IMG/VR virus record: IMGVR_UViG_3300045988_082360
Strand: one strand, 5' to 3'
DNA: 63,050 nt
Source of the DNA: a virus
In this document: piece by piece, positions 10,299-34,483 of the stretch
Layout: every line of letters begins with the position of its first letter
How positions within the stretch are numbered: position 1 is the stretch's first letter
Notes under the pieces: model-generated
Seen by the model: the letters and a program-made list of their open reading frames with translations, nothing else
Told to the model about the DNA's origin: nothing
The model's database searches: none
Translations under genes and position numbers: made by a program

Positions 10299-10505
10299 AT
10301 GCGGATTGTGAATGTGGCGGTCAGACAATGCTACCGCTTCAACTGCCCGAATTGCGGGAGCAAGCTGGAAGCTGACAGTGACGAGCTGGTTGATGTCGGT
10401 GGAAAGACCAGTCGGTTCTGGTGTCCTGTCTGCCGAGAGGAAAGATACATTCCATGGTCTTCTTTGAGAAAACGGACGGTCTACGAGGACAGTTCCGCAG
10501 ATTAA
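10299..10505 (+). CDS. zinc-ribbon protein
   Basis: It has CPNCGS...CPVCRE pairs. Confidence 0.5.
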   Translation: MRIVNVAVRQCYRFNCPNCGSKLEADSDELVDVGGKTSRFWCPVCREERYIPWSSLRKRTVYEDSSAD

Positions 10506-10522
10506 GCAAACCCCTTTATGGA
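10495..10522 (+). promoter_or_regulatory. 28-nt conserved motif, copy A
   Basis: CCGCAGATTAAGCAAACCCCTTTATGGA. It overlaps the stop of the upstream gene, 16 nt before ATG 10538. Confidence 0.6.
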
Positions 10523-10537
10523 AAGGAGTGTTTTTCT

Positions 10538-10720
10538 ATGGACACTATGTTTGAAAATTTAGATTTTCGGTTTGATAAGGAAAATAACGACGAACGACCT
10601 TTTATGATTGCTTGTAAAGATCGAGAAATCATGGATGGGGAACGTTGGGTGTTGGTATCTTTATCGACCGATGAAGCAAAAAGATTACTCAAGTATCTTG
10701 AAGAACACATTGCAAAATAA
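10538..10720 (+). CDS. hypothetical protein
   Basis: AAGGAG lies 9 nt upstream of the start, and a terminator follows. Confidence 0.5.
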   Translation: MDTMFENLDFRFDKENNDERPFMIACKDREIMDGERWVLVSLSTDEAKRLLKYLEEHIAK

Positions 10721-10728
10721 AGAAGATT

Positions 10729-10757
10729 GAGCCGTTGTCAGCGGCTCTTTCTTTTTT
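10729..10757 (+). terminator. intrinsic terminator
   Basis: Stem GAGCCG...CGGCTC followed by TTTCTTTTTT. Confidence 0.7.
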
Positions 10758-10854
10758 ATATTTTCCGGCACGCGGGTAACTGGATCAGATGCTAAATTGG
10801 TATCTGGAAAATTGCCCGGGGTAAAAATCTGAAAAATCATTTTGGAGGTATGAC

Positions 10855-11082
10855 ATGGAACTCATCATTGGCATTGCTGTCGGCATTATCATCGGGCTTG
10901 TAGTCGGAACGCTTATATTTCGGCGAAGGTATATTCCCGTCGGCGATCTTCGGATCGACCGTTCTGACCCGACGAGCGAACCATTTCTGTTTCTCGAATT
11001 AGGCACAGATGTGCGAACTATTTCTGGTATGAAAACCGTCACACTCAGCGTTCGCAACGAGAATTTCCTCCCGCACGAATAA
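10855..11082 (+). CDS. small membrane protein
   Basis: N-terminal TM helix ELIIGIAVGIIIGLVVGTLIF. RBS TGGAGG is upstream. Confidence 0.5.
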   Translation: MELIIGIAVGIIIGLVVGTLIFRRRYIPVGDLRIDRSDPTSEPFLFLELGTDVRTISGMKTVTLSVRNENFLPHE

Positions 11083-11098
11083 CACCCCCTATTATGGA
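11071..11098 (+). promoter_or_regulatory. 28-nt conserved motif, copy B
   Basis: CCGCACGAATAACACCCCCTATTATGGA. It overlaps the stop codon at 11080-11082. Confidence 0.6.
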
Positions 11099-11126
11099 GT
11101 CAACTTATTGAAAGGAGAAATGCAAT

Positions 11127-11537
11127 ATGGCAGAAATCAAGAAATTGCTGGATGATGCAATCGAAACCGAGATCAACAATCTCAACTCGGCATCTGACAA
11201 AGACGAGAAATCGGAGGTCATCAAGAACCTTGCAGCACTGCACAAGCTCCGTATCGAAGAGATCAAAACGGAAACTGAAATCGAGGAAAAGTCGGAGCGT
11301 CGGGCCATGGATAAAGCTGCCCATGACGAAGACGCGACACTGAAAGCGTTTCAGCTTGACGAGAATACGCTCGATCGGTACGCGAAGATCGGCATTGCTG
11401 CGGCGGAACTTGTATTGCCGCTGATGTTCTACGGCGTTTGGATGAGTAGAGGACTGAGATTCGAGGAAACGGGGACATTTACATCCCAGACATTCAAGAA
11501 TCTGTTCAATCGCTTCAAGCCTACTCGAAAGAGTTGA
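11127..11537 (+). CDS. hypothetical protein (coiled coil plus C-terminal hydrophobic segment)
   Basis: RBS AAAGGAGAAA is upstream. The N-terminal half is charged and helical, followed by IGIAAAELVLPLMFYGVWM. Confidence 0.5.
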   Translation: MAEIKKLLDDAIETEINNLNSASDKDEKSEVIKNLAALHKLRIEEIKTETEIEEKSERRAMDKAAHDEDATLKAFQLDENTLDRYAKIGIAAAELVLPLMFYGVWMSRGLRFEETGTFTSQTFKNLFNRFKPTRKS

Positions 11538-11586
11538 GCCAACAGGCGTTGAGAGTCGTGTAAAAAACACGCTCTCTTCGCTTTTT

Positions 11587-11614
11587 TCGTAGATTTTGCA
11601 GGGCGCTTTATGGA
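11587..11614 (+). promoter_or_regulatory. 28-nt conserved motif, copy C
   Basis: TCGTAGATTTTGCAGGGCGCTTTATGGA, located after a T-run. Confidence 0.6.
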
Positions 11615-11702
11615 AAGGAGATACCTAAGAGCTCTTTATATCTCTCGACTTAATACCGGAGGTACTGTATAATAGCAGCTACTTCCAGATTAACAGGAGG
11701 TA

Positions 11703-12044
11703 ATGAAAGTGCGCAGAAAAGGTAGAAAGGTTGTTAAACCGGCAGGTAGTGAATTGATGGACTACCTGAATAAGGGATACGCCATCTGCAACAAGTGCGG
11801 AGCGGTGATGGATCGGAAAGAAGATCCCGAAGGCGGATGCGATATTTATGCCTGCCCGTCCTGTGGATGGGAAATTGAGGAATTGGATTATGAGTACGAG
11901 AGCGCAGATGAAATGGAACTCGGACTCGATGAAAGAGGCGACGAGTATCTGATCTTCAGGGATGACATGCCGCCCGCAGGTTGTAAAGCTTGCGGTGGTC
12001 CCTACCCTTACTGCAAAGCGTCATGCAAAATGTTTGACGACTAA
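11703..12044 (+). CDS. Cys-rich zinc-finger protein
   Basis: It has CNKCGA...CPSCGW and CKACGG...CKASC pairs. RBS CAGGAGG is upstream. Confidence 0.5.
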   Translation: MKVRRKGRKVVKPAGSELMDYLNKGYAICNKCGAVMDRKEDPEGGCDIYACPSCGWEIEELDYEYESADEMELGLDERGDEYLIFRDDMPPAGCKACGGPYPYCKASCKMFDD

Positions 12045-12060
12045 AGCATTATCAACGGAG

Positions 12061-12095
12061 GAAAGTCCTGTAACAGGGGCTTTCTTCTTTTTGTT
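12061..12095 (+). terminator. intrinsic terminator (imperfect stem)
   Basis: Stem GAAAGTCCTG...CAGGGGCTTTC followed by TTCTTTTTGTTTT. Confidence 0.5.
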
Positions 12096-12107
12096 TTGGA
12101 GATAAAG

Positions 12108-12467
12108 ATGCGATACCACTATGAAAAGCCTACAATTTATCTGTCGATGTACGGAAAGCGTTATATTTGCGACCATCCGGTCTACGATAGCTGCACACTG
12201 TTTGAAATCGGAGATAAAGGCCTTGCCGTGATCCAACAGCGGTATGATGCCGAAACCAAGTCCACATTCTGGACAGAGGTGGATGCATGGCTGACCGATG
12301 CCCTCTATGTTCACCCGAAATTCAAGGAATTCTTTGATGAACGAGCCGGAACTTGTACGGACGGGCTCTGGCCCACCGTAACGATTCGGCAAATCATGTG
12401 GGCGCTGAAAATGAAGCCTTTGCAAAAGCAGCGTTGGGAAACGGTCTTCGACCGCCGTGATATTTAG
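12108..12467 (+). CDS. hypothetical protein
   Basis: GGAG lies 6 nt before ATG 12108. Confidence 0.5.
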   Translation: MRYHYEKPTIYLSMYGKRYICDHPVYDSCTLFEIGDKGLAVIQQRYDAETKSTFWTEVDAWLTDALYVHPKFKEFFDERAGTCTDGLWPTVTIRQIMWALKMKPLQKQRWETVFDRRDI

Positions 12468-12494
12468 CGCCAATCCAGCAGCCCCTATTATGGA
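12467..12494 (+). promoter_or_regulatory. 28-nt conserved motif, copy D (more divergent 5' half)
   Basis: GCGCCAATCCAGCAGCCCCTATTATGGA. Confidence 0.5.
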
Positions 12495-12523
12495 TACCAA
12501 TACCTATGAAAGGGGTTAGGAGT

Positions 12524-12739
12524 ATGGATGAGATGAAGATTCAATCGAAATTCATGACAGGACTTGTATCGAGGATCGTAAAGAAGGTACTTCGGACAAA
12601 ATTGGGCTGTGAAGTAGATATTCAGCTCAATGAGTTCCGGACGACAGTCATTGATGATAAGACTCATGTCCATCTGGATTTGGATGCGGACCTTACGAAA
12701 GAAGAACTTAACAAACTATTGAAGACTATTGGAATCTGA
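12524..12739 (+). CDS. hypothetical protein
   Basis: AGGAG lies before ATG 12524, and a terminator follows. Confidence 0.5.
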   Translation: MDEMKIQSKFMTGLVSRIVKKVLRTKLGCEVDIQLNEFRTTVIDDKTHVHLDLDADLTKEELNKLLKTIGI

Positions 12740-12745
12740 GGAATT

Positions 12746-12774
12746 GAGCCGTTTTATGCGGCTCTTTTCTTTTT
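12746..12774 (+). terminator. intrinsic terminator
   Basis: Stem GAGCCG-TTTTATG-CGGCTC followed by TTTTCTTTTT. Confidence 0.7.
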
Positions 12775-12802
12775 CCGCAGATTTTGCAACTCATATTATG
12801 GA
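12775..12802 (+). promoter_or_regulatory. 28-nt conserved motif, copy E, abutting the tRNA-like gene
   Basis: CCGCAGATTTTGCAACTCATATTATGGA. The tRNA-like acceptor stem starts 2 nt later. Confidence 0.6.
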
Positions 12803-12803
12803 G

Positions 12804-12877
12804 AAACAGTTAGCTCAGTGGTAGAGCGCTTCACAAAACCAGTGAAGAGGTGATCGGTTCGAGTCCGATACTGCTTC
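12804..12877 (+). tRNA. tRNA-like gene with an aberrant anticodon arm (identity undeterminable)
   Basis: It has a canonical D-arm (GCTC AGTGGTA GAGC), a 5-nt variable loop and a T-arm (ATCGG TTCGAGT CCGAT). The acceptor is 7 bp with one A-C mismatch. The anticodon arm is 19 nt (CTTCA-CAAAACCAG-TGAAG) with no T in the loop. No CCA is encoded. Confidence 0.5.
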
Positions 12878-12909
12878 TTTACTTTTTATTTTGGACGAAA
12901 GGAGAAAGC

Positions 12910-13239: not shown

Positions 13240-13252
13240 AAGGAGAATTCAG

Positions 13253-13668: not shown

Positions 13669-14475
13669 ATGAAACTCGACCTTAAGATCGGGAGGAGCTT
13701 GAAGAAAGCATCTCCCACCATTCTGACATGTATTGGAGCCGCTGGCGTTGTGGCAACCGCGGTTCTGGCTGTCAAGGCAACCCCGAAAGCGGATAGTCTT
13801 ATCAAGGCTGACAGCAGGAGAAATCACGATGGCGACCCTTATGCTGCAACAAAGCTCGAAGCCGTCAAATCATGCTGGAAATGCTACATACCGGCTGCGG
13901 CCACTGGCGTCGCTACGATAATCTGCATCTTTGGAGCGAATACCCTCAATAAGAAGCAGCAGGCGTCTCTTGCCAGCGCCTATGCGCTCGTAAACCGATC
14001 CTATTCTGACTATAAGCATAAATTGAAAGAACTGTATGGCGAAGATGCTCACAAGAAGATCATGGAGTCCATCGCCGCAGAGAAAAGCAGTATGCCTCCT
14101 ATTACGGCTACTGGAGGCTTCTCCAATTCATCTTTGGAGTTTGAAGATGCCAACGAGGAGCAGCGACTCTTCTACGACAGCTTCTCCAAAAGATATTTTC
14201 AGGCAACCATAAGCCAAGTCCTGCAAGCAGAATATCACATCAACAGGAATATGGTTCTCGGCGCGTTCGTAACTCTGAACGATTTCTACGACTTCCTTGG
14301 AATAAGCCATGTCGAAGGCGGAGATGTTGTTGGCTGGTTGCTGTCTGATGGCATGTACTGGATCGACTTCGATAACTCGAAAGCTATGGTTGATGATGGA
14401 CTGAACGGAGAGATTCCGTGTTATGTCGTCGATGCTGAGTTCGGCCCTCAACCAGAATCTGCGTGGGATTATTGA
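13669..14475 (+). CDS. membrane protein, paralog family 3 (copy 1 of 3)
   Basis: It has an N-terminal TM (SPTILTCIGAAGVVATAVLAVKATPKA) and a second TM (CYIPAAATGVATIICIFGA). The C-terminus contains LNDFYDFLGI. It is paralogous to the 15022 and 16965 ORFs. Confidence 0.6.
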   Translation: MKLDLKIGRSLKKASPTILTCIGAAGVVATAVLAVKATPKADSLIKADSRRNHDGDPYAATKLEAVKSCWKCYIPAAATGVATIICIFGANTLNKKQQASLASAYALVNRSYSDYKHKLKELYGEDAHKKIMESIAAEKSSMPPITATGGFSNSSLEFEDANEEQRLFYDSFSKRYFQATISQVLQAEYHINRNMVLGAFVTLNDFYDFLGISHVEGGDVVGWLLSDGMYWIDFDNSKAMVDDGLNGEIPCYVVDAEFGPQPESAWDY

Positions 14476-14479: not shown

Positions 14480-14507
14480 CCGCAAAAACTACATCGCCTA
14501 TTATGGA
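14480..14507 (+). promoter_or_regulatory. 28-nt conserved motif, copy F
   Basis: CCGCAAAAACTACATCGCCTATTATGGA. Confidence 0.6.
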
Positions 14508-14523: not shown

Positions 14524-14688
14524 ATGAACCAGAGAAATATCTTTAAGCTGCTGTCCCTTGCGGGAGTCGTCCTTGGCGGGATCGGAACATTGTTATCCGG
14601 CTGGGCCGACAACAAGGAGCAGGAAGCAATTATCGAGGAGAAGGTCAACGAAGCACTTGCTGCCAGAAACGAAGAGGAAGAGTCCTAA
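14524..14688 (+). CDS. small membrane protein
   Basis: GGAGG lies 9 nt before ATG 14524. TM helix LLSLAGVVLGGIGTLLSGW followed by an acidic tail. Confidence 0.5.
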   Translation: MNQRNIFKLLSLAGVVLGGIGTLLSGWADNKEQEAIIEEKVNEALAARNEEEES

Positions 14689-14720
14689 ACAGGGTTCTTC
14701 TCTTTTTTCGAGGTGAACTC

Positions 14721-15089
14721 ATGACAAATGATACGGTCGTACAAGCACTTCTTGACTATCTCAACGAATCGGATGAACCCGAAATCTATTGGCCACGCCA
14801 TCACTTTGAAGAATCTTGCTTTTCGAGATGGGCGGCATGGGAGATGATCGAGGCAATTTTAGACCATCCATTCGATGATCCGGAAGATGTGATCGAGGAG
14901 TTCACCATGAAAATGGTGATTTTCTCATCTATCGCAGATGGTACGGATGAAGGACTGATATTTTCGATTGCCGCTGATTTCGCCGATGAATGCTTAACAC
15001 TATTTAGAGAGGAGAACTCAAATGACAAAACAAACCATTATCGAGGCGTTGAAAAACGCCCAGAAGTCAATGAAAAAGCACAGCCCTGA
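14721..15089 (+). CDS. hypothetical protein, paralog family 1
   Basis: It contains SRWAAWEMIEAILDHP...IFSIAADFADECLTLF. Its 3' end overlaps the next gene by 68 nt. Confidence 0.5.
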   Translation: MTNDTVVQALLDYLNESDEPEIYWPRHHFEESCFSRWAAWEMIEAILDHPFDDPEDVIEEFTMKMVIFSSIADGTDEGLIFSIAADFADECLTLFREENSNDKTNHYRGVEKRPEVNEKAQP

Positions 15090-15786
15090 GATCCTCACCG
15101 GCATCGGAATTGCCGGGATGATCGCCACCACTGTATCCGCCGTTCGAGCAACGCCAAAGGCTTTGCAACTCATCGACGCCAGAGAAATCAAAGAAAACCG
15201 GCGTCTGAGCAACAAGGAGATCATTGCCACCACATGGAAGTGCTATGTTCCGGCTGCTGTTACAGGGGTGCTGTCCACAGCCTGCCTTGTAGGCGCCAGC
15301 TCTGCAAATCTTCGCCGCAACACTGCTCTTGCAACGGCTTATTCCATCTCCGAAACGGCTCTCAAGGAGTACAAAGAGAAGGCTGTTGAGGTAGTCGGCG
15401 AGAAAAAAGAGCAGGCGATCCGTGATGCAGTTGCCAAGGAGACGCTCACGAAACACCCTCTTGGCGAACGCGAGGTCATCATTACCGGAGGTGGTGATAT
15501 TCTCTGCTTCGACCCCCTTACAAACCGATATTTCAAGTCCGATCGCGACCGCCTGATGCGTGCTATGAATGAACTGAACAAACGAATGCGCGACGAGATG
15601 CGTGTTTCGCTGAATGATTTCTACGATGAGATCGGTCTGAGCGAGGCTGAGGTCGGAGAGCATCTCGGGTGGGACATTGACAACGGAAAAGGCTACATAG
15701 ACCTCGATTTCAGCACACAGTTGGCTGATGATGGAACGCCTTGCCTTGTCGTCGGTCATAACCACCCGCCTATTTACCTTTGGTAA
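15022..15786 (+). CDS. membrane protein, paralog family 3 (copy 2 of 3)
   Basis: It contains SPEILTGIGIAGMIATTVSAVRATPKA, CYVPAAVTGVLSTACLVGA and LNDFYDEIGL. Confidence 0.6.
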   Translation: MTKQTIIEALKNAQKSMKKHSPEILTGIGIAGMIATTVSAVRATPKALQLIDAREIKENRRLSNKEIIATTWKCYVPAAVTGVLSTACLVGASSANLRRNTALATAYSISETALKEYKEKAVEVVGEKKEQAIRDAVAKETLTKHPLGEREVIITGGGDILCFDPLTNRYFKSDRDRLMRAMNELNKRMRDEMRVSLNDFYDEIGLSEAEVGEHLGWDIDNGKGYIDLDFSTQLADDGTPCLVVGHNHPPIYLW

Positions 15787-15814
15787 GCGCAGATTTTGCA
15801 TCTCCTATTATGGA
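15787..15814 (+). promoter_or_regulatory. 28-nt conserved motif, copy G
   Basis: GCGCAGATTTTGCATCTCCTATTATGGA. Confidence 0.6.
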
Positions 15815-15857: not shown

Positions 15858-16109
15858 ATGGAAGACAAGAGAATGAACGAGATCGAGGAAATCGAAGCTA
15901 CGGAAGTCGACGAGACTCAGGACAGCTCTAATGCTGGTGCCCTGCTCGCCGGTGTCATCGGAGGTTTCATTGCTTACGCTGTGATTGGCGGGGCGAAGAA
16001 GCTGCGGGTGATCATCGAAGAGAAGGTCACTGCAAAGAAGCTGGCGGAAGCCGCTAAGACCGACAAGGCCGAAATCGACTCGGCAGACGAGGATTCCGAG
16101 GAAAACTAA
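15858..16109 (+). CDS. small membrane protein with acidic termini
   Basis: AAAGGAGAA precedes ATG 15858. TM helix ALLAGVIGGFIAYAVIGGA. Confidence 0.5.
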   Translation: MEDKRMNEIEEIEATEVDETQDSSNAGALLAGVIGGFIAYAVIGGAKKLRVIIEEKVTAKKLAEAAKTDKAEIDSADEDSEEN

Positions 16110-16135
16110 GAAAAGTAAATTGCGGAGTTCTACAA

Positions 16136-16176
16136 GGGAGAGTGCCAATAACAGGGCGCTTTCCCTTTTTTCTTTT
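16136..16176 (+). terminator. intrinsic terminator (imperfect stem)
   Basis: Stem GGGAGAGTGCC...GGCGCTTTCCC followed by TTTTTTCTTTTT. Confidence 0.55.
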
Positions 16177-16964: not shown

Positions 16965-17933
16965 ATGAAAGCTAATGAAATCATGACTTCCGCAAAGCGT
17001 ACCTTCTCCAAGGTCGGCTTTGGGCTCCAGAAGAAGAGCCCCGAAATTCTTGTCGGCATCGGCATCGTAGGTGCTGTTGCAAGTGCCGTTCTGGCCTGCA
17101 AGGCTACCACAAAGGCAGGTGCCATCGTCGAGGAGTCTAAGAACTCTCTCGCTGATATTCGTGAGGCCAATGAAAACGGCGTCACCAAGGCTGGTGAGTC
17201 CTACTTCGCAGAGGATCGCAGGAAAGATCTCGCCATCGCCTATGTTCAGACAGGCGTGAAGTTCGCAAAGCTGTATGCCCCCGCGGTCATGATCGGTGCA
17301 GTTTCTATCGCCAGCATTCTCGCAAGCCACAACATCATGAAGAAGCGCAACGTCGCTCTGGCGGCTGCTTACGCTGCTGTCGATAAGTCTTTCAAGGATT
17401 ATCGTGACCGCGTAATCGAGCGTTTCGGCGAGCAGGTTGAAAAGGAGCTGCGCTACAACATCAAGGCGCAGGAGATCGAAGAGACCGTCACGGACGACAA
17501 GGGCAAGGAAAAGAAGGTCAAGCAGAATGTGAATGTCGCAGACGAGAACTGGAATGGCTCTGACTACGGCCCTTACGCAAAGGTGTTTGATGATACTCAC
17601 TCCGATTGGAAGCAGGACCCTGAAATGAACCTCTTCTATCTGCGTGCTCGTCAGGCTCAGGCGAATGATATGCTCAAGTCCCAGGGTCACCTCTTCCTGA
17701 ACGAAGTTTACGATATGCTCGGTTTCAAGCGCACCAAAGCCGGCGCTGTTGTCGGTTGGATCTATGACGACAAGAAGCCTTACGGCGACAACTTTGTTGA
17801 TTTCGGTATGACCGAGATTCGTCGTCACGATGCTGATTCGGACGAGTACAAGCGCGCGTTCATTCTGGACTTCAATGTTGTCGGCGACATCACTTCCAAG
17901 ATCGTCGACCACCAGAATGACTATCTCGCATGA
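16965..17933 (+). CDS. membrane protein, paralog family 3 (copy 3 of 3)
   Basis: It contains SPEILVGIGIVGAVASAVLACKATTKA, LYAPAVMIGAVSIASILAS and LNEVYDMLGF. Confidence 0.6.
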   Translation: MKANEIMTSAKRTFSKVGFGLQKKSPEILVGIGIVGAVASAVLACKATTKAGAIVEESKNSLADIREANENGVTKAGESYFAEDRRKDLAIAYVQTGVKFAKLYAPAVMIGAVSIASILASHNIMKKRNVALAAAYAAVDKSFKDYRDRVIERFGEQVEKELRYNIKAQEIEETVTDDKGKEKKVKQNVNVADENWNGSDYGPYAKVFDDTHSDWKQDPEMNLFYLRARQAQANDMLKSQGHLFLNEVYDMLGFKRTKAGAVVGWIYDDKKPYGDNFVDFGMTEIRRHDADSDEYKRAFILDFNVVGDITSKIVDHQNDYLA

Positions 17934-27470: not shown

Positions 27471-28763
27471 ATGGATAACGCAAAAATTATTGCTGTCGAC
27501 TTCGATGGCACTTTGGTTGAAAACAAATGGCCTGAGATCGGTGCACCGATTGAAAAAAACATCGCCAAGGTTAAGGCTGAACAGGAAGCTGGCGCCAAAA
27601 TCATTCTTTGGACGAACCGCGTCGGCGAACCTTTGGAAAAGGCACTTTCGTTCTGCAAAGAGCAGGGTATCCACCTCGATGCTGTCAATGAGAATCTGCC
27701 CGAAATCACAAAAGCATTTGGGACGGACTGCCGGAAAATCTTCGCCAACGAGTATTGGGATGATCGCGCAGTGCCTATGTCCGAGAAGGATATTGGAGAA
27801 TTCTCCGACGGGTTCCACACTTTCAATTCTCTCTATCATCAGCGGCTCATCCTCTTCGCAGCCTTGGTGAACACTTTCCCGACGCTTGCTTGGAAATCCC
27901 ACAAGCATTCGGATGGAGAGGCTCCGTTTGGCGGAGGCTGGTTCATCGTTGGCGTCGACACGCCAAAAGGGCCCTATACCTATCATTACGAGGACAAGGA
28001 CTGGGACCTGTTCCACTGCAAAGAGGTGGCCACTGCCCCTGAGTGGGACGGCCATACCGATAAGGATGTCGAGCGGGTACTTTCCCTTTCCGATGACGAG
28101 AGTGATTGGGCGGCTCGTGAAGTTGCTCTTGCTTCTAAGAAAGAACGCGAAAGTGCCGAAGATAAAGACGACTGGGATTACGGTGTTGCGTGCTATGAGA
28201 GTGCCCTCAGAGCGTATCGGTCTTTGGAACGCGACGGCCACTCCGGTATGAGCATTCAGATCACCAAGAGCATCCTGAACCGCCTCATTGACGGCAAATG
28301 CCTTACCCCCATTGAGGACGATCCTGATATTTGGACTAAGGTCGAGTTTGGTGAGAACGACCCTATCCAGCACTTCCAGTGCAAGCGCATGAGCAGCCTG
28401 TTTAAGGATGTCGCCGAGGACGGTACGGTCACTTACTCGGATGTCAACCGTGTTCAGCTCATCAACAAAGAAAGCCCTGATATTCCGTTCAGAAACGGCT
28501 TCGGTACTCGCCTTATCGACAAGACGTATCCAATCACGCTTCCGTACTTCCCGGCGGACAAGAAGTTCAAGATCATCGTCGAAGAGTTTCTGACCGATGA
28601 GAAAAATGGCGACTTCGATACCGTCGGCTATCTCCAGCTTATTCTTCCCAATGGCAACACCGTTGAGCTGAATGGATATTTCAAAGATGGTCCGGAAGGC
28701 ATGGTTCGCATCGAGCAGGCTGAGTACGAAGAGAGAAAAGCTAACCGGATCGACAAGAAGTAA
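27471..28763 (+). CDS. HAD-superfamily phosphatase-like N-domain fused to an unknown C-terminal domain
   Basis: It has IIAVDFDGTLV (the DxDxT motif) and ILWTNR. The remaining ~300 aa were not recognised. Confidence 0.5.
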   Translation: MDNAKIIAVDFDGTLVENKWPEIGAPIEKNIAKVKAEQEAGAKIILWTNRVGEPLEKALSFCKEQGIHLDAVNENLPEITKAFGTDCRKIFANEYWDDRAVPMSEKDIGEFSDGFHTFNSLYHQRLILFAALVNTFPTLAWKSHKHSDGEAPFGGGWFIVGVDTPKGPYTYHYEDKDWDLFHCKEVATAPEWDGHTDKDVERVLSLSDDESDWAAREVALASKKERESAEDKDDWDYGVACYESALRAYRSLERDGHSGMSIQITKSILNRLIDGKCLTPIEDDPDIWTKVEFGENDPIQHFQCKRMSSLFKDVAEDGTVTYSDVNRVQLINKESPDIPFRNGFGTRLIDKTYPITLPYFPADKKFKIIVEEFLTDEKNGDFDTVGYLQLILPNGNTVELNGYFKDGPEGMVRIEQAEYEERKANRIDKK

Positions 28764-29861: not shown

Positions 29862-30594
29862 AAATGTCGAAGTTCTTGGCTGGGGGCACGCCATTCGAGG
29901 CATGAGGAACCCTAAGAACTCGTGGGCGAAAAGCGATAGTGGCCCAGAATGTCCTTATGGGAAAGAAAAATGTTGCGGAGAATGCCAGCAAAATTTCTGC
30001 ATTGGCCCCAACGATAAGCAACTCATGATGGCCCTCCGCAACGCTGGTACGGATCATCGTAAGTTCATGCGGATGATTACCGTCTATCTCGACATCACTG
30101 CACCGCTGTACTGGTGGAAAGAGTTCGACACCTATAAGGTCGGTACGGTCGCCAACTCCTGCTCGACGATGCACAAAATTACTGACAAGGAGTTTACACT
30201 GGATGATTTTAGTCACGAGCACCTCATTGACTATTGTTTATATTCTTGCAATGAAGTCGATGAACCCGTGATAAACGACGCTCCTCATATTGGGTGCGGA
30301 GGACTTCAGCTTCTTAACCTGACAATTAACGTCCTCAATTATTACAGGGAAAAATATCTTGTAGCGACGAAGACTGAGGAATATACCGGCCTCCCCGCCA
30401 AGGATATTTGGTGGCAGATGATCCAGCTTCTCCCCAGTTCCTACAACCAGAAGCGGACGGTAATGCTGAACTATGAGGTTCTGGCCAATATCTACAAATC
30501 CCGTCGGCATCACAAGCTCGATGAATGGCATACACTTTGCGACCGGATTGAAAATCTGCCTTATTCTGCGTTGATTACCGGCACTGCCGTTTGA
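29848..30594 (+). CDS. ThyX-like (flavin-dependent thymidylate synthase fold) protein, divergent motif
   Basis: It contains ITVYLDITAPLYWWKEFDTYKVGTVANSCSTMH in place of the RHRxxSxxxxSxR signature. It lies in a nucleotide-metabolism neighbourhood. Confidence 0.35.
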   Translation: MLKIENVEVLGWGHAIRGMRNPKNSWAKSDSGPECPYGKEKCCGECQQNFCIGPNDKQLMMALRNAGTDHRKFMRMITVYLDITAPLYWWKEFDTYKVGTVANSCSTMHKITDKEFTLDDFSHEHLIDYCLYSCNEVDEPVINDAPHIGCGGLQLLNLTINVLNYYREKYLVATKTEEYTGLPAKDIWWQMIQLLPSSYNQKRTVMLNYEVLANIYKSRRHHKLDEWHTLCDRIENLPYSALITGTAV

Positions 30595-30637
30595 CACCAC
30601 TCCGGCTGTTATGATACAATCATAAAAAAGAAATCAT

Positions 30638-30665
30638 GCGCAAAAAGTACATCGCCTATTATGGA
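30638..30665 (+). promoter_or_regulatory. 28-nt conserved motif, copy H
   Basis: GCGCAAAAAGTACATCGCCTATTATGGA. Confidence 0.6.
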
Positions 30666-30681: not shown

Positions 30682-30882
30682 ATGGCTGAACGCAACGATT
30701 CTCACCTTCTGGATGGTGGTGATTCTGTGGGTATGACGGATAACCAGTACAAGGGCATGCTGCTTGACCAGTTGGAAGACTGGCAGGAGATCCTTGACCT
30801 GGCAATCGCAGCCGGGAACACCGAGATTCAGAAAAAGGCTGAGAAGCAAATCGCGAAGATCAACGAAAAGCTGAAATTCTAA
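30682..30882 (+). CDS. hypothetical small protein
   Basis: GGAGG lies before ATG 30682, and a terminator-like hairpin follows. Confidence 0.45.
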   Translation: MAERNDSHLLDGGDSVGMTDNQYKGMLLDQLEDWQEILDLAIAAGNTEIQKKAEKQIAKINEKLKF

Positions 30883-30955
30883 TCTCTACCCAGAGGGAAG
30901 GGCTTGTGGAAACACAGGCTCTTCTCTTTTTATATTTTTCAGGAGTGTGAATACT

Positions 30956-31516: not shown

Positions 31517-31527
31517 GGAGGATCGCA

Positions 31528-31878: not shown

Positions 31879-31879
31879 G

Positions 31880-32146: not shown

Positions 32147-32151
32147 TGATT

Positions 32152-32475
32152 ATGTGGAAGCGCGAACTGATCCGCAACAAGATCTATGCGGTATTGATGG
32201 TGCTGGCATCTTTGCCGGTTGTTATTTTGGAGAAGGATGGTACGGTCCTTCTCCTTTCTCTTTTCTTCGGAGTTCCAATGTTCTTCGCAAAAGAAAACTG
32301 GATCATGGGAGGACCCGTTCATGAAAGTAAAGAAAGCCGGAAAAAGAGTGTTTGGAGCCGTAATGTCCGCTGCCGAGAAAAAGGCTATGGACATGGAGAT
32401 ACAGCGACAGCTCGCAGAGTACGATCGAAAGCATATCCGAGAGATCGACGCTCTGGTTCTGTGGGAGCTGCGTGA
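32152..32475 (+). CDS. small membrane protein (3' extension overlapping the next gene is doubtful)
   Basis: AAGGAG lies 8 nt before ATG 32152. Two TM helices are followed by a basic tail that overlaps the 32321 gene by 155 nt. Confidence 0.35.
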   Translation: MWKRELIRNKIYAVLMVLASLPVVILEKDGTVLLLSLFFGVPMFFAKENWIMGGPVHESKESRKKSVWSRNVRCREKGYGHGDTATARRVRSKAYPRDRRSGSVGAA

Positions 32476-32656
32476 ACAGCTCGGCTTCGGCAACAAGAGG
32501 CTTAAAAAATTCTATGACAACTTCTCCCGCGGCATCGAGGCTTTGATCCGTCGTTATGAGATGGAACAGGGCGATGATGTCTGGCTCTGTACCTACAAGC
32601 TGAAAGAGATCGGCTGTGATCTTGAAAAATGGGAGAAAGAAAGAGGTGACCAATGA
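32321..32656 (+). CDS. hypothetical protein
   Basis: GGGAGGA precedes ATG 32321. The sequence is helical and charged. Confidence 0.45.
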   Translation: MKVKKAGKRVFGAVMSAAEKKAMDMEIQRQLAEYDRKHIREIDALVLWELREQLGFGNKRLKKFYDNFSRGIEALIRRYEMEQGDDVWLCTYKLKEIGCDLEKWEKERGDQ

Positions 32657-32844
32657 GCGACCGAAAAAACTCGGAGGGCTACTCAGATCCGACAGCCTAC
32701 CAGGCCATGATGAACCTTGAAATCGAGGAGCTTCGCTTTAAGAAGTTGCTCAGGTCCATAAAGGATGTGTGTGACTTGGCAGACTTTGAGATCGAAGGTC
32801 GTGTCGTTCTGATCGACAAGCGGTCCGGACGGATATGGAGGTAG
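32653..32844 (+). CDS. hypothetical small protein
   Basis: ATGA overlap with the upstream gene. Confidence 0.4.
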   Translation: MSDRKNSEGYSDPTAYQAMMNLEIEELRFKKLLRSIKDVCDLADFEIEGRVVLIDKRSGRIWR

Positions 32845-32848
32845 AAAA

Positions 32849-33124
32849 ATGTTTAACTTTCCTACTGAAGATATTGTGAAGGCATTCGAGGCCTTTAGCG
32901 AAGCCATCAATCAGTTGGCTGCTGATATTGTTGATGCGTGGGAAGCTGTCACCGTGACTGTATCAGCCGTCCTCGACGATGATGCGCTCTGGCCAAACCG
33001 ATACGGAATGCAGCCTAAAAAGTACGGTCAATCTCTTCAGAAACACTCCAAAAAGTCATTCAAGCAATATGACTACATCCCGATTATGGCAAAAAATCTC
33101 CCTTATCAGCGGAGAGCATTTTAG
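32849..33124 (+). CDS. hypothetical small protein
   Basis: It is the last ORF before the 600-nt gene-free region. Confidence 0.4.
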   Translation: MFNFPTEDIVKAFEAFSEAINQLAADIVDAWEAVTVTVSAVLDDDALWPNRYGMQPKKYGQSLQKHSKKSFKQYDYIPIMAKNLPYQRRAF

Positions 33125-33201
33125 CAAAACTGCGTGAATTTGCCCCGGTTCTGTCTAATCTAAGATAGAATTCGGGGCTCTTTCATGCGCAAAAATCGTG
33201 G

Positions 33202-33464
33202 CCACTTTTATTTTGAAAAACGGGCTTCTGCCCACTTTCTTTCAGAAACTTGATATATTTGGGCGAGTTTAGAGACTTGTAGAGACGGTTCTGGCCAAAA
33301 AAAGTGGGTTTTTGCCCGGTTTTATTTGAAAAGTGGGCAGGCTGAAACCGTTGGTACACAAGGCTTTGCGGGATTTCTGCCCACTTTCCCACTTTTTTCT
33401 TTAATTAGTGTGAAGAAAAAATGTAAAAAAATATATATAAGTGACGAGAAAAAGTGGGTTTTTG
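33202..33464. repeat. iteron-like array of AAAGTGGG / CCCACTTT (7 copies, both orientations) with an AT-rich block
   Basis: Copies: CCACTTTT 33202-33209; CTGCCCACTTT 33228-33238 and 33377-33387; CCCACTTT 33388-33395; AAAGTGGGTTTTTG 33301-33314 and 33451-33464; AAAGTGGGCAG 33330-33340. The AT-rich block is at 33396-33440. Confidence 0.6.
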
Positions 33465-33517
33465 GCCAAAGCCCGATTTTCCTCAAAAAACTCTGACTTC
33501 CTTTTCGTGCGCGAGTG

Positions 33518-33526
33518 TGATATACT
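33518..33526 (+). promoter_or_regulatory. extended -10 promoter element TGATATACT
   Basis: It has the TGnTATACT form. There is no good -35 at 17 nt. It lies about 7 nt before the start of a long stem structure. Confidence 0.4.
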
Positions 33527-33532
33527 AAGCTT

Positions 33533-33700
33533 GCGACACAATTAAATCTTCTTATCCGCTTCACTATGGGAGAATTACTTGGCAACAAGTGTTTCTCTCT
33601 TAACTCGTTATACCCATAGTGGTGGTAAGAGGATTGTGTCGCAGCAATGAGAGATGCGCTTTTGCAGGGTGCGTCTCTTCGTTGGGGCGCACCTTTTTTA
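33533..33700 (+). ncRNA. structured leader RNA ending in an intrinsic terminator, upstream of the late/packaging operon
   Basis: Nested pairings: GCGACACAAT (33533-33542) with ATTGTGTCGC (33633-33642), and CACTATGGG (33562-33570) with CCCATAGTG (33613-33621). The terminator stem GGTGCG/CGCACC plus T6 is at 33668-33699. Confidence 0.45.
33667..33700 (+). terminator. intrinsic terminator 30 nt before the first late-operon gene
   Basis: GGTGCG-loop-CGCACC followed by TTTTTT. Confidence 0.6.
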
Positions 33701-33729
33701 TTTGCACTCTTACGAGGGGAGGACGTAGC

Positions 33730-34251
33730 GTGGCACGGCCTTACACTGAACAGCAAGTTCTCAAGAAACTGGATATTCCAGATTTCAGACATTTGACAAA
33801 AGAAAAAGTCATTGCTTTTGCGACAATGGTTCCGAAAATGAACCCCGAAGTTGCAAAGAAAGCTCTTGAGCAATTTCCGAACTTCGCTTCGACTTCACTT
33901 GATGTTTTGAAAGAGTACCGCAGCATCATCCAGGAAGCGATGGAAGACGATCGAGAGAGTATGCGCAGTTGTTACGATATGTATAACCGCGTGATGGATT
34001 CTCTTGAAAAAATGCTGGACAACGACGACCTGACATTTGAGCAGAAGACTTATATTCTCAATCAGATGCAGGAAGTTGCCGCAGCGGTAGCGGATAAGGA
34101 CTCTGAAAAATCGAGGAACCGTTTGAAGCTCATTGGGGTTATCGGCGGCATAGCTGCTGCCATTGTCGCGGCTTTGGCTTCGAGTCTTGGAGGTAACATC
34201 GCACTGAAAGAAAGCAACAACATTGATGATGACAACATAACGGATTTATGA
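33730..34251 (+). CDS. hypothetical protein with C-terminal TM
   Basis: GAGGGGAGGA precedes GTG 33730. The protein is helical, and its C-terminus contains LIGVIGGIAAAIVAALASSLGG. Confidence 0.45.
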   Translation: MARPYTEQQVLKKLDIPDFRHLTKEKVIAFATMVPKMNPEVAKKALEQFPNFASTSLDVLKEYRSIIQEAMEDDRESMRSCYDMYNRVMDSLEKMLDNDDLTFEQKTYILNQMQEVAAAVADKDSEKSRNRLKLIGVIGGIAAAIVAALASSLGGNIALKESNNIDDDNITDL

Positions 34252-34266
34252 GAAAGGACAGACAGC

Positions 34267-34389
34267 ATGAGTAAAGGTAACGGAAAGCGTAGCACTTGTG
34301 GACTGATCCTCGATGTGATACTTACTTTCTGCACAGGAGGTCTGTGGCTGATTTGGATACTCATTCGGTATCTGCGAAATAATAGCTGA
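34267..34389 (+). CDS. 40-aa membrane peptide
   Basis: The product is MSKGNGKRSTCGLILDVILTFCTGGLWLIWILIRYLRNNS. A terminator follows. The ORF is below the track cut-off. Confidence 0.4.
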   Translation: MSKGNGKRSTCGLILDVILTFCTGGLWLIWILIRYLRNNS

Positions 34390-34405
34390 CCCTCTGGATA
34401 TTTGA

Positions 34406-34440
34406 CCGAGACGCTTGAAAAGGTGTCTCGGCTTTTTTTA
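34406..34440 (+). terminator. intrinsic terminator
   Basis: Stem CCGAGAC...GTCTCGG followed by CTTTTTTT. Confidence 0.7.
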
Positions 34441-34455
34441 TGCCCTTTTTGGCTT

Positions 34456-34483
34456 CCGCAGAAAAAACAGGGTCTTTTATGGA
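34456..34483 (+). promoter_or_regulatory. 28-nt conserved motif, copy I (heads the operon containing the polymerase-like gene)
   Basis: CCGCAGAAAAAACAGGGTCTTTTATGGA. Confidence 0.6.

What the first reader, a model, noticed from the sequence alone, without database searches (positions are those of the whole stretch)
10495..34483. Nine copies of a contiguous 28-nt motif that heads short operons and does not fit sigma-70 geometry
All nine copies are on the + strand, in intergenic gaps or overlapping the preceding stop codon, and usually follow an intrinsic terminator:
- 10495 CCGCAGATTAAGCAAACCCCTTTATGGA
- 11071 CCGCACGAATAACACCCCCTATTATGGA
- 11587 TCGTAGATTTTGCAGGGCGCTTTATGGA
- 12467 GCGCCAATCCAGCAGCCCCTATTATGGA
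- 12775 CCGCAGATTTTGCAACTCATATTATGGA
- 14480 CCGCAAAAACTACATCGCCTATTATGGA
- 15787 GCGCAGATTTTGCATCTCCTATTATGGA
- 30638 GCGCAAAAAGTACATCGCCTATTATGGA
- 34456 CCGCAGAAAAAACAGGGTCTTTTATGGA

The register is fixed: CGCA at positions 2-5, an A/T run at 7-11, CA at 13-14, mostly CC at 18-19, and TTATGGA at 22-28.

The conserved upstream box is only about 14 nt from the TATTAT block, and there is no TTGACA at 17 nt. Several Shine-Dalgarno sequences begin right after TTATGGA (GGAAAGGAGG). A start site 7 nt downstream of TATTAT would therefore cut off the SD.

The layout looks like the single-block promoters of phage-encoded polymerases. The T7 promoter, for example, is ...CACTATA^GGGAGA, and here it would be ...CCTATTAT^GGAGA. 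Candidate readers are the polymerase-like protein at 35382 and the sigma-r4/ArpU-like protein at 9875.

A degenerate tenth copy lies at 33187-33214.
Basis: partly seen in the sequence, partly recalled or inferred. Interest (0 to 1): 0.8.

Follow-up and report, generated by a model that had tools for sequence, protein, structure and literature searches.

The report
Promoter motif for a phage-encoded RNA polymerase
A 28-base signal repeated nine times in this gut-bacterium prophage is most likely the start signal read by the phage's own single-protein RNA polymerase, and the same signal, in the same layout, turns up in related phages of very different bacteria.

Summary
Nine copies of CGCA-N7-CA-N7-TTATGGA lie on the + strand between 10.5 and 34.5 kb, against about 1.4 expected by chance. 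The proposed tenth copy is not real.

ORF 35382-38072 has an invariant ADFDGD motif and a predicted two-barrel RNA polymerase fold. It also carries helix-turn-helix (HTH) domains at the N and C termini.

The same motif, in the same register, occurs in relatives whose polymerase is 38-54% identical:
- Faecalibacterium phage FP_oengus
- Arthrobacter phage Kardesai
- Gordonia phage Gill
- Streptomyces phage Scap1
- Lactococcus phage P092, where only the 3' two-thirds is kept

In these relatives it again precedes short genes, tRNAs and the polymerase operon.

A sigma-70/sigma-A reading fails on four counts:
- The -35-like box sits 14 bp from TATWAT.
- The critical "-11 A" is absent in FP_oengus.
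- 31 distinct tRNA genes start within 3 nt of the motif's end.
- In 99 of 251 sites the ribosome-binding site starts directly after the motif.

Transcription must therefore start at about G26 of TTATGGA.

Best reading, with confidence about 0.65: this is the cognate promoter of the phage polymerase. This rests on comparative inference; nothing has been tested experimentally.

Parts of the motif were noticed before in two actinophage clusters, but were called a sigma-70 -10 box or a recombination boundary.

The parts
10495..10522 (+). Motif copy 1, CCGCAGATTAAGCAAACCCCTTTATGGA. An SD abuts it and an ATG lies at 10538 (60-aa ORF). A terminator follows at 10729-10747.
11071..11098 (+). Motif copy 2. 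It overlaps the stop of ORF 10855-11082 and heads the 136-aa ORF 11127-11537.
11587..11614 (+). Motif copy 3 (CGTA variant). It directly follows a hairpin at 11551-11576 plus a T-run, and heads ORF 11703-12044.
12467..12494 (+). Motif copy 4 (CGCC variant). It begins at the last base of ORF 12096-12467 and heads ORF 12524/12533-12739.
12775..12802 (+). Motif copy 5. It directly follows terminator 12746-12764 and directly precedes the tRNA-Val.
12804..12877 (+). tRNA-Val (anticodon AAC). Its 5' end lies 5 nt after the TATTAT hexamer and 2 nt after the motif end.
14480..14507 (+). Motif copy 6. It lies 5 nt after the stop of DUF6353 gene 13669-14475. AAGGAGG abuts it and an ATG lies at 14524. 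A terminator follows at 14676-14701.
15787..15814 (+). Motif copy 7. It lies 1 nt after the stop of DUF6353 gene 15022-15786 and heads ORF 15858-16109. A terminator follows at 16134-16167.
30638..30665 (+). Motif copy 8. AGGAGG abuts it and an ATG lies at 30682 (66-aa ORF). A terminator follows at 30892-30929.
30591..30620 (+). Canonical sigma-A-type promoter match (TTGACA-18-TACAAT with an upstream TG), 18 nt upstream of copy 8. It is listed for contrast, to show what a host-type promoter looks like in this element.
34456..34483 (+). Motif copy 9. It follows terminator 34406-34431 and heads the endonuclease-exonuclease-polymerase operon. A copy at this position is conserved in all relatives examined.
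34481..34530 (+). Leader hairpin (-19.3 kcal/mol, z -4.1) followed by a U-run. It starts exactly at G26 of copy 9. It looks like an attenuator or terminator sitting in front of the polymerase operon.
34550..35378 (+). VRR-Nuc-type endonuclease (34550-34849) and Cas4-like exonuclease (34821-35378). These are the first genes of the polymerase operon and are conserved in all lineages compared.
35382..38072 (+). 896-aa single-polypeptide two-barrel RNA polymerase homologue. It has two N-terminal HTHs (about aa 47-113), the invariant motif SGADFDGD at 506-513, and a C-terminal sigma-r4-like HTH (aa about 855-895). It is the proposed reader of the motif.
38089..38355 (+). 88-aa ORF immediately after the polymerase gene. 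It is conserved in FP_oengus, Kardesai and P092. Its function is unknown, and it could be a cofactor.

Best explanation
The 28-nt block is the cognate promoter of the phage's own RNA polymerase, the 896-aa product of 35382-38072. This enzyme is a single polypeptide with a two-barrel catalytic core (ADFDGD) fused to HTH DNA-binding domains at both ends.

Proposed mechanism, with G26 taken as +1:
- The HTH modules read the upstream box T-CGC-R at -26 to -21, the A/T tract, and CA at -13/-12.
- The A/T-rich TWAT at -4 to -1 melts.
- RNA synthesis starts at G26 (plus or minus 2 nt) and gives transcripts that begin GGA/GAG.

Each copy drives a short unit that is usually closed by an intrinsic terminator. 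The unit can be a small ORF, a tRNA, or the endonuclease-exonuclease-polymerase operon itself.

Shown by the data:
- the motif, its strand bias and its positions
- the polymerase fold and catalytic motif
- conservation of the motif's register across phyla
- the positional limits on the start site

Inferred:
- which domain reads which box
- the exact start nucleotide
For: 1. The motif is real and strand-specific. In 80 related loci there are 132 hits on the polymerase strand and 0 on the other.

2. ORF 35382 looks like a polymerase:
- It matches phrog_4291 'RNA-dependent RNA polymerase' over its full length with E=0.
- SGADFDGD is invariant across 51 homologues.
- The AF2 model (pLDDT 77) finds RDR2 and then the largest subunits of Pol IV, bacterial, ASFV and Pol II polymerases, and phage 'RdRP' proteins.
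- bioRxiv 10.1101/842583 independently reports HHpred 95.7% to PF05183, plus terminal HTHs.

3. The register is the same in phages whose polymerase is only 38-54% identical, on hosts from Clostridia, Bacilli and Actinobacteria:
- FP_oengus: ACGCGAAAAATACAGCCTCCTTTATGGA, 13 copies
- Kardesai: TCGCGTAAATTACAAGGGGTATAATGAA, 10 copies
- Gill: TCGCAGAAATTACACGTCCTATAATGAG, 11 copies
- Scap1: CGCAAGTTTTACAGCCTCTATAGTGAG
- P092: TTTTAAGTTTTACATACCCTATAATGAG, 10 copies

4. Among proteins conserved in all four genomes compared, the polymerase is the only one with recognisable DNA-binding and transcription features. The 'ArpU-like' ORF is not conserved.

5. The geometry excludes a sigma-A -10 reading:
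- The -35-like TTCGCA is 14 bp from TATWAT.
- The position equivalent to -11 A is T in 13/13 FP_oengus sites and A in only 55% of 424 sites.
- 31 non-redundant tRNA genes of varied identity begin -1 to +3 nt from motif position 28. Most have a terminator just upstream, so no other promoter is available to them.
- 99 of 251 sites have the SD starting at position 29-31.
- Leader hairpins begin exactly at G26 in the window and in Kardesai.

6. The motif is specific to this phage family:
- 115/120 IMG/VR stretches with the exact pattern encode homologues of window proteins.
- In 596 Gb of prokaryotic genomes, 47 of the first 120 hits are in this phage context.

7. A canonical sigma-A promoter at 30591-30620 in the same element looks quite different from the motif.
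Against: - There is no experimental 5'-end or transcription data for any member of the family.
- DNA-dependent RNA synthesis has not been shown for this family. Sequence-level homology to the one characterised enzyme, YonO, is undetectable (hhalign probability 0.3%).
- The polymerase gene lies behind one of its own proposed promoters. The first polymerase molecules therefore need another source: host read-through, weak host recognition, or delivery in the virion. None of these is shown.
- The structural-gene module has no copy in the window or in Gill. YonO, by contrast, transcribes late genes from a single promoter (PMC5467207). It is therefore possible that the polymerase serves the late genes and that something else reads the motif.
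- In four of six lineages the 3' block is a perfect TATAAT, and published notes call it a sigma-70 -10 box (PMC9671010, PMC10868162).
- Other proteins of unknown function are co-conserved and could be the true reader or a cofactor: three DUF6353 paralogues, phrog_4079 and the 88-aa ORF.
- The polymerase and the primase-polymerase are co-inherited in about 250 phage records, so no natural knockout exists to test the link.
Confidence: 0.65

Rival explanations
1. The motif is a host-RNA-polymerase promoter. TATWAT would be the sigma-A -10 box. The upstream CGCR/A-tract/CA box would be bound by a phage-encoded activator or a sigma-like factor, in the manner of T4 MotA/AsiA or a phage sigma. The phage polymerase would then serve only the late genes, as YonO does.
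For: - TATAAT is perfect in Kardesai, Gill and P092.
- Cluster DJ genome notes interpret it as a sigma-70 -10 box.
- The copies head early or middle-type genes and the polymerase operon itself. That is the usual task of host polymerase before a phage polymerase exists.
- There are no copies in the structural module.
- YonO uses one late promoter.
- Several co-conserved proteins of unknown function could be the factor.
Against: - The -35-like box is 14 bp from the hexamer, not 16-18 bp.
- No TG extension is present.
- The -11 A is missing in 13/13 FP_oengus sites and in 45% of 424 sites.
- A start 6-8 nt after the hexamer would fall inside 31 different tRNAs and inside the SD of 99 sites.
- No alternative -10-like hexamer lies at positions 13-20.
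- The upstream box keeps the same register in hosts of different phyla.
- The version with a phage sigma-like factor of unusual geometry is not excluded.
Confidence: 0.17
2. The motif works at the RNA level. It would be a processing site (for an endoribonuclease, or a 5'-leader determinant) that creates defined 5' ends just upstream of SDs and tRNAs in read-through transcripts.
For: - The motif's end lies at a fixed distance of 0-3 nt from tRNA 5' ends and SDs.
- Five of the nine copies overlap or abut the preceding ORF, so they could be co-transcribed with it.
Against: - About half of the sites, and nearly all of the tRNA-linked ones, lie directly after a terminator hairpin plus T-run. An upstream transcript would end before reaching them.
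- There is no conserved secondary structure or pairing across the block.
- No Rfam family other than the tRNA matches the 9-39 kb region searched.
- The conserved features (CGC box, A/T tract, fixed spacing over 28 nt) are typical of duplex-DNA recognition.
- In Gill, gaps of about 85 nt are fully accounted for by terminator, motif and SD, which leaves no room for another promoter.
Confidence: 0.05
3. The motif is a DNA site with a role other than transcription initiation. It could be a recombination 'boundary sequence' that promotes gene shuffling, as proposed for cluster AU phages, or an oriented repressor-binding site like the 'stoperators' of cluster A mycobacteriophages.
For: - bioRxiv 10.1101/2020.01.10.891226 describes the 32-bp repeat in cluster AU as a boundary sequence that flanks rearranged genes.
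- The copies sit at gene boundaries in the most mosaic part of the genome.
- Stoperators are also asymmetric and oriented with transcription (my own knowledge).
Against: - The motif keeps a strict register relative to SDs, tRNAs and 5' hairpins.
- Its internal spacing is conserved across phyla while the flanking genes are unrelated.
- It is present in strictly lytic phages with no integrase or repressor annotated, which argues against a prophage-repressor site.
- Recombination at repeated promoters can be a by-product of their repetition and does not exclude promoter function.
Confidence: 0.05

Closest known systems
T7/SP6-type single-subunit polymerase promoters (about 23 bp, -17 to +6, TATA at -4 to -1, start at G)
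   Same: - One contiguous block with no separate -35 and -10 boxes.
- An A/T-rich melting segment ends at -1.
- The initial transcribed sequence is purine-rich (GGA/GAG).
- There are many copies per genome, all co-oriented with the genes.
- The block is often paired with terminators.
- The Scap1 version even reads CTCTATAGTGAGA.
   Different: - The enzyme here is not a T7/Pol-A-fold polymerase. It is a two-barrel enzyme with fused HTH domains.
- The conserved block reaches further upstream, to about -26.
- The copies head early or middle-type genes and the polymerase gene itself.
YonO of Bacillus prophage SPbeta (single-polypeptide two-barrel DNA-dependent RNA polymerase; PMC5467207)
   Same: - It is a single-chain phage enzyme of about 100 kDa with the DxDGD catalytic loop.
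- It belongs to the RdRP-like branch of two-barrel polymerases.
- It is encoded by a temperate phage of a Firmicute.
   Different: - No sequence-level similarity is detectable (hhalign probability 0.3%).
- The YonO promoter sequence is unknown. Only one start site has been mapped, upstream of yonK, and it drives late genes.
- The yonN-yonK region has no similar motif.
- Terminal HTH domains are a feature of the present family.
Late promoters of jumbo-phage non-virion multisubunit polymerases (phiKZ T(-3)ATG(+1); AR9 A(-11)ACA-N6-TA/G(+1); PMC7598289)
   Same: - These are two-barrel-family phage polymerases.
- The start-site element is TATG with G as +1. Here T22-W-A-T-G26 is the invariant core.
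- An upstream ACA element is present.
   Different: - Those enzymes have 4-5 subunits plus a specificity subunit.
- ACA here lies at -14 to -12, not -10 to -8.
- The present motif has an additional CGCR box and an A/T tract.
- There is no uracil-DNA and no phage nucleus context.
Bacterial sigma-70/sigma-A promoters
   Same: - A TTGACA-like hexamer (TTCGCA, or TTTACA in P092) is present.
- A TATAAT-like hexamer is present.
- The polymerase's C-terminal HTH matches Pfam Sigma70_r4_2 (E 6e-7).
   Different: - The spacer is 14 bp, measured from the CGCR box to the hexamer, instead of 17 plus or minus 1.
- The inferred start lies 1-4 nt after the hexamer instead of about 7.
- The -11 A is not conserved.
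- The block looks like a compressed sigma-70 promoter, but it is not one.
Repeated intergenic motifs already noted in cluster DJ Gordonia phages (Vardy PMC9671010, Conley PMC10868162) and cluster AU Arthrobacter phages (Giantsbane, bioRxiv 10.1101/2020.01.10.891226)
   Same: Judging by host cluster, position and the reported TATAAT, these are very likely the same element. Five or six copies of a 32-50 bp intergenic repeat lie in the region of small membrane-protein genes.
   Different: - Those reports treat single clusters.
- They interpret the repeat as a sigma-70 -10 promoter or as a recombination boundary.
- They do not connect it with the HTH-polymerase gene, with other clusters, or with Firmicute phages.
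- I did not see their motif sequences, because the figures are not held.

Membership tests
sigma-70/sigma-A promoter | A -35 hexamer lies 16-18 bp upstream of the -10 hexamer. | tested here: not met
   The only conserved upstream box (T)CGCR ends 14 bp before TATWAT in every lineage. There is no TTGACA at 17 bp and no TG extension.
sigma-70/sigma-A promoter | The -10 hexamer has A at -11 and T at -7. | tested here: not met
   Position 21 is T in 13/13 FP_oengus copies and in 3/9 window copies. It is A in 55% of 424 non-redundant sites. T at position 25 is invariant.
sigma-70/sigma-A promoter | Transcription starts about 7 nt (6-9) downstream of the -10 hexamer. | tested here: not met
   This is an indirect test. 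31 distinct tRNAs begin 3-7 nt after the hexamer, and 99 SDs begin 4-6 nt after it. A start at +7 would truncate them. Direct 5'-end mapping cannot be done with these tools.
   Foldseek hits are RDR2 and the largest subunits of multisubunit polymerases, not T7-type enzymes. PHROG assigns phrog_4291.
T7-like single-subunit polymerase promoter system | A contiguous conserved block spans the start site, with A/T-rich -4 to -1 and G at +1. | tested here: inconclusive
   The sequence layout fits: TWAT then G-R-R, and the block is contiguous. The start site is only inferred.
Two-barrel (double-psi beta-barrel) RNA polymerases, YonO/RdRP-like branch | A catalytic DxDGD loop is present. | tested here: met
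   SGADFDGD at residues 506-513 is invariant in alignments of 8 and of 51 homologues.
Two-barrel (double-psi beta-barrel) RNA polymerases, YonO/RdRP-like branch | The overall fold resembles solved two-barrel polymerases. | tested here: met
   - AF2 model: pLDDT 77.4, pTM 0.61.
- Top PDB hits: 7eu1_M and 7w88 (RDR2), E 6e-5 and 1e-4, probability 1.00, about 530 aligned columns.
- Next hits: Pol IV NRPD1, bacterial beta', ASFV and Pol II largest subunits.
- TM-scores are low (0.25), as expected for multidomain proteins.
Two-barrel (double-psi beta-barrel) RNA polymerases, YonO/RdRP-like branch | Sequence homology to YonO or to Pfam RdRP (PF05183) is detectable. | tested here: inconclusive
   - hhalign against YonO: probability 0.3%.
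- Pfam scan: no PF05183 hit at E<=0.01.
- PDB profile search: HTH hits only.
- A preprint reports HHpred 95.7% to PF05183.
Two-barrel (double-psi beta-barrel) RNA polymerases, YonO/RdRP-like branch | The enzyme carries out DNA-templated, promoter-specific RNA synthesis. | not testable with these tools
   This needs purified protein and in vitro transcription.
N4 virion-polymerase hairpin promoters | The promoter forms a short DNA hairpin around the conserved core. | tested here: not met
   Positions 15-19 show no consistent complementarity with positions 26-31 in any of six lineages.
T4 middle (MotA/AsiA) promoters | An activator box replaces the -35 while a normal sigma-70 -10 box and start distance are kept. 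| tested here: not met
   There is an upstream box, but the -10 and start-distance criteria fail, as shown above. No MotA or AsiA homologue was looked for specifically.
Known RNA families (Rfam 15) | A covariance-model match at the gathering threshold. | tested here: not met
   Only the tRNA at 12804-12877 matches in the 9-39 kb region.

The most novel reading that the evidence does not exclude
This would be the first promoter consensus for the YonO-class, single-polypeptide two-barrel RNA polymerases.

A self-contained enzyme would carry its own sigma-like HTH modules and read a 'compressed sigma-70-like' promoter: a -35-like box, a 14-bp spacer, TATWAT ending at -1, and a start at G. The geometry would be conserved from gut Clostridia prophages to soil actinophages and dairy lactococcal phages.

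That would define a portable, host-independent transcription system for Gram-positive bacteria. It would also give a view of how promoter recognition can be built into a minimal two-barrel polymerase.
Probability: 0.6. Interest if true: 0.8.

Novelty: new variant of a known kind. Interest (0 to 1): 0.7.

Why it matters
Phage polymerases paired with their own promoters, such as T7, SP6 and N4, are central tools and are models of transcription initiation. For the single-chain two-barrel polymerases only YonO has been characterised, and its promoter is unknown.

If the reading is right:
- A defined 28-nt promoter becomes available for a polymerase family found in at least 250 isolated phages and in very common human-gut prophages. 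Hosts include Agathobaculum, Faecalibacterium, Lachnospiraceae and Oscillospiraceae.
- The question of how such enzymes find promoters becomes directly testable in easy hosts (Gordonia, Arthrobacter, Lactococcus).
- The repeated 'mystery motifs' already reported in the actinophage cluster DJ and AU literature would be explained.
- A candidate orthogonal expression system for Gram-positive bacteria would emerge.
- Annotation of these phages would improve, because the motif marks the boundaries of transcription units and the tRNA genes fused to promoters.

Tried and rejected
- **Tenth copy at 33187.** Rejected. It scores 3.1 bits and lies within an iteron-like array.
- **SPbeta P_yonO region (yonN-yonK gap) and the 50-kb SPbeta segment.** No motif in this register was found.
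- **hhalign of the family profile against YonO, plus sequence and profile searches of the PDB.** Only HTH hits came back. The link to polymerases needed a fold comparison.
- **N4-like DNA hairpin across TATWAT.** No consistent pairing was found.
- **Rfam scan of 9-39 kb.** Only the tRNA matched.
It has no Pfam hit at E<=1 and is not conserved outside the FP_oengus lineage.
- **Natural knockouts, meaning relatives with the replication module but no polymerase.** None exist. Genus counts are the same for both genes for all but fragmentary or unnamed records (250 vs 253 records).
- **A distinct late promoter conserved around the cos region.** Nothing convincing was found.
- **First pattern search.** I used a wrong spacer (N8) and missed the copies. 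This was corrected.
- **One literature search.** It was too broad and uninformative.
- **PDB sequence searches for DUF6353, phrog_4079 and the 88-aa ORF.** They returned nothing informative.

Full report
**1. The observation**

All nine listed sequences are present at the stated coordinates on the + strand. The pattern CGCA-N7-CA-N7-TTATGGA with up to two mismatches gives exactly these nine hits, against 1.43 expected; none of 100 shuffles reached nine. My first search used a wrong spacer and missed them.

A weight matrix built from the nine sites scores them at 30-40 bits. The next best site on either strand of the 63-kb window scores 7.4 bits, which is within the range of shuffled sequence. 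The claimed tenth copy at 33187 scores 3.1 bits. It lies in a separate array of CCCACTTT/AAAGTGGG words, so I reject it.

Every copy is followed by a gene start 15-107 nt downstream. In three copies an AGGAG(G) ribosome-binding site abuts the motif and an ATG follows 15-16 nt later. Copy 12775 is followed after 1 nt by a tRNA-Val at 12804-12877.

Only three copies directly follow a terminator hairpin. More typically a terminator closes the short unit downstream of a copy.

**2. What the element is**

The window is a temperate siphophage. It has an integrase at 7919-9154 on the minus strand, and its gene order parallels Faecalibacterium phage FP_oengus. Identical polymerase proteins are recorded from Agathobaculum butyriciproducens and from more than a thousand gut contigs.

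The nine copies lie in the non-structural half, between 10.5 and 34.5 kb. There are none in the structural module.

**3. The candidate reader**

ORF 35382-38072 (896 aa) matches PHROG 4291, 'RNA-dependent RNA polymerase', end to end. It contains ADFDGD, which is invariant within SGADFDGD in 51 homologues. Pfam detects only a C-terminal HTH, with Sigma70_r4_2 at E 6e-7. Two further HTH-like segments lie at residues 47-113.

An AlphaFold2 model (pLDDT 77, pTM 0.61) retrieves these from the PDB, in order:
- plant RDR2 (E 6e-5 and 1e-4, about 530 aligned columns)
- the largest subunits of Pol IV, bacterial, ASFV and Pol II polymerases

From BFVD it retrieves phage 'RdRP' proteins and poxvirus polymerase.

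A preprint had already proposed that this protein family is a YonO-like polymerase with terminal HTHs, shared by an actinophage supercluster and by Lactococcus and Faecalibacterium phages. It says nothing about promoters (10.1101/842583).

YonO itself is a proven single-chain DNA-dependent RNA polymerase, but its promoter sequence remains undetermined (PMC5467207). I found no sequence-level link to YonO and no similar motif near its mapped start region.

**4. The decisive comparison**

In 80 IMG/VR loci whose polymerase is 64-100% identical, the matrix finds 132 sites on the polymerase strand and none on the other. One of these is a conserved copy about 0.9 kb upstream of the polymerase gene.

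More importantly, phages whose polymerase is only 38-54% identical carry their own version of the motif in the same register:

| Phage | Host | Motif | Copies |
|---|---|---|---|
| FP_oengus | Faecalibacterium | ACGCGAAAAATACAGCCTCCTTTATGGA | 13 |
| Kardesai | Arthrobacter | TCGCGTAAATTACAAGGGGTATAATGAA | 10 |
| Gill | Gordonia | TCGCAGAAATTACACGTCCTATAATGAG | 11 |
| Scap1 | Streptomyces | CGCAAGTTTTACAGCCTCTATAGTGAG | about 3 |
| P092 | Lactococcus | TTTTAAGTTTTACATACCCTATAATGAG | 10 |

The common skeleton is (T)CGCR, a 7-nt A/T-rich stretch, CA, N5, then T-A/T-T-W-A-T followed by G-R-R. P092 has lost the CGCR box.

In every lineage the copies are co-oriented with the genes. They follow terminators and precede small genes. 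One copy heads the endonuclease-exonuclease-polymerase operon.

Among window proteins conserved in all four compared genomes, the polymerase is the only one with recognisable DNA-binding or transcription features. The 'ArpU-like' ORF is restricted to the FP_oengus lineage and has no Pfam match.

The exact pattern is specific to this phage family:
- 115 of 120 viral stretches that carry it encode homologues of window proteins.
- In 596 Gb of prokaryotic genomes, 47 of the first 120 hits are in that context.

**5. Why it is not a host sigma-A promoter**

- The upstream box is 14 bp from the hexamer.
- The base that would be the essential -11 A is T in all 13 FP_oengus copies and in 3 of the 9 window copies. 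It is A in only 55% of 424 non-redundant sites.
- In relatives, 31 non-redundant tRNA genes of varied identity (Val, Phe, Ile, Leu, Tyr, suppressor-type) begin between -1 and +3 nt from motif position 28. Most have a terminator immediately upstream, so the motif is their only possible promoter. A start 6-8 nt after the hexamer would fall inside the tRNA.
- 99 of 251 sites with an identifiable SD and start codon have the SD beginning at position 29-31.
- Leader hairpins in the window and in Kardesai begin exactly at G26.
- A canonical TTGACA-18-TACAAT promoter 18 nt upstream of copy 30638 shows what a host-type promoter looks like here.

Together these points place the start at about G26. The motif then reads as box -26 to -21, CA at -13/-12, TWAT at -4 to -1, and G-R-R at +1 to +3. 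This layout works like a T7 promoter. It also echoes the T(-3)ATG(+1) start element of phiKZ non-virion polymerase promoters (PMC7598289). It is not a member of either system.

**6. Mechanism and its weak points**

I conclude, at about 0.65 confidence, that the block is the cognate promoter of the phage polymerase. The polymerase's HTH modules would supply sequence recognition.

Four weaknesses remain:
- There are no experimental data.
- The polymerase operon sits behind one of these promoters, and a terminator-like hairpin lies in its leader. The source of the first polymerase molecules is therefore unexplained.
- The structural genes carry no copy. The alternative, that the polymerase serves late genes while a host core plus an unknown phage factor reads the motif, cannot be excluded. 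I give this 0.17.
- Co-conserved proteins of unknown function could be involved: DUF6353 in three copies, phrog_4079 and the 88-aa ORF.

RNA-processing and recombination-boundary readings are much less likely. The reasons are the terminator context, the lack of any conserved structure, and the motif's presence in phages with no integrase or repressor annotated.

**7. Novelty**

The repeat has been noticed locally before:
- In cluster DJ Gordonia phages, as a 43-50 bp motif 'containing a sigma-70 -10' (PMC9671010, PMC10868162).
- In cluster AU Arthrobacter phages, as a 32-bp 'boundary sequence' (10.1101/2020.01.10.891226).

In the library I could search, nothing links it to the polymerase, shows its conservation across phyla, or derives the start-site geometry.

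I classify it as a new variant of a known kind: a phage polymerase with a cognate promoter, but for a polymerase class with no known promoter.

Noticed in passing
window 38486-38560: This looks like a cos site (cohesive genome ends). GGGGGGGGTCGCAAAAACAGCACCCCCTCTGCATCGCGGCGGT|CTTTGAAAATTCTCCGGGGGATATTT matches the joined right and left physical ends of Gordonia phage Gill and Streptomyces phage Scap1, and the right end of Lactococcus phage P092. Virion DNA would therefore end just after the polymerase operon and begin just before the terS-like gene at 38853.
   Followed up: partly
window 33130-33500: An iteron-like array sits in a 500-bp non-coding gap. About eight copies of CCCACTTT/AAAGTGGG, in both orientations, flank an A/T-rich core at 33400-33440. 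The same word (GCCCACTTTTG / CAAAAGTGGCC) occurs in the equivalent gap of Arthrobacter phage Kardesai (L202:33610-33691). It may be a replication origin.
   Followed up: partly
window 34481-34530; also L203:29455-29495 and L202:9330-9349: A strong hairpin (-19.3 kcal/mol, z -4.1) plus a U-run starts exactly at the inferred +1 of the motif copy that heads the polymerase operon. A similar hairpin plus U9 follows a copy in P092. A short 5' hairpin follows a Kardesai copy. This may be an attenuator gating polymerase expression, or a 5'-end stabiliser.
   Followed up: partly
relatives L081-L190 (e.g. L112:10901-10976, L153:226-301, L115:5696-5768) and window 12804-12877: tRNA genes in this phage family are almost always fused to the motif, with a leader of 3 nt or less. 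They include suppressor-type anticodons (UUA reading the stop codon UAA, UCA reading UGA) and several with 6- or 8-nt anticodon loops that ARAGORN cannot name. The window's own tRNA-Val has the unusual anticodon AAC. P092 carries two tRNA-like sequences that ARAGORN misses.
   Followed up: partly
window 35382-35480 (polymerase residues 1-33): The N-terminal 33 residues are predicted to be disordered (pLDDT below 50). They nevertheless contain the most invariant stretch of the protein outside the active site, HYG-x-KR-x-SGRYPWGSG, conserved from Lactococcus phages to Streptomyces phages. This could be a packaging or ejection signal, or a partner-binding peptide.
   Followed up: no
window 13669-14475, 15022-15786, 16965-17933: There are three paralogues of DUF6353 (E 1e-77 to 1e-81). 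They are conserved in all lineages compared, and their function is unknown. Motif copies directly follow the first two.
   Followed up: no
window 27471-28763: A 430-aa protein carries a WDGH domain and a Tad3 (type I Thoeris inhibitor) domain. It is a probable anti-defence gene sitting within the replication module.
   Followed up: no
window 30591-30620 and 9144-9600: Canonical sigma-A-type promoter matches lie next to the motif system. TTGACA-18-TACAAT with a TG sits 18 nt upstream of copy 30638. Several more lie between the integrase and the first + strand genes (for example 9570-9598). These are candidates for the host-dependent immediate-early step.
   Followed up: no
window 38089-38355: An 88-aa ORF lies directly downstream of the polymerase gene. 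It is conserved (43-54% identity) in FP_oengus, Kardesai and P092, and small ORFs are annotated at the same position in Gill and Scap1. It has no family or structure match. It could be a polymerase cofactor.
   Followed up: partly
L327:100-125 (Gordonia phage Gill left end): TGTAATTACTATAGAGGAAC lies near the left genome end, upstream of the first genes. It resembles the 3' part of the motif but is out of register. It may be unrelated, or it may be a different promoter class for the late genes.
   Followed up: no
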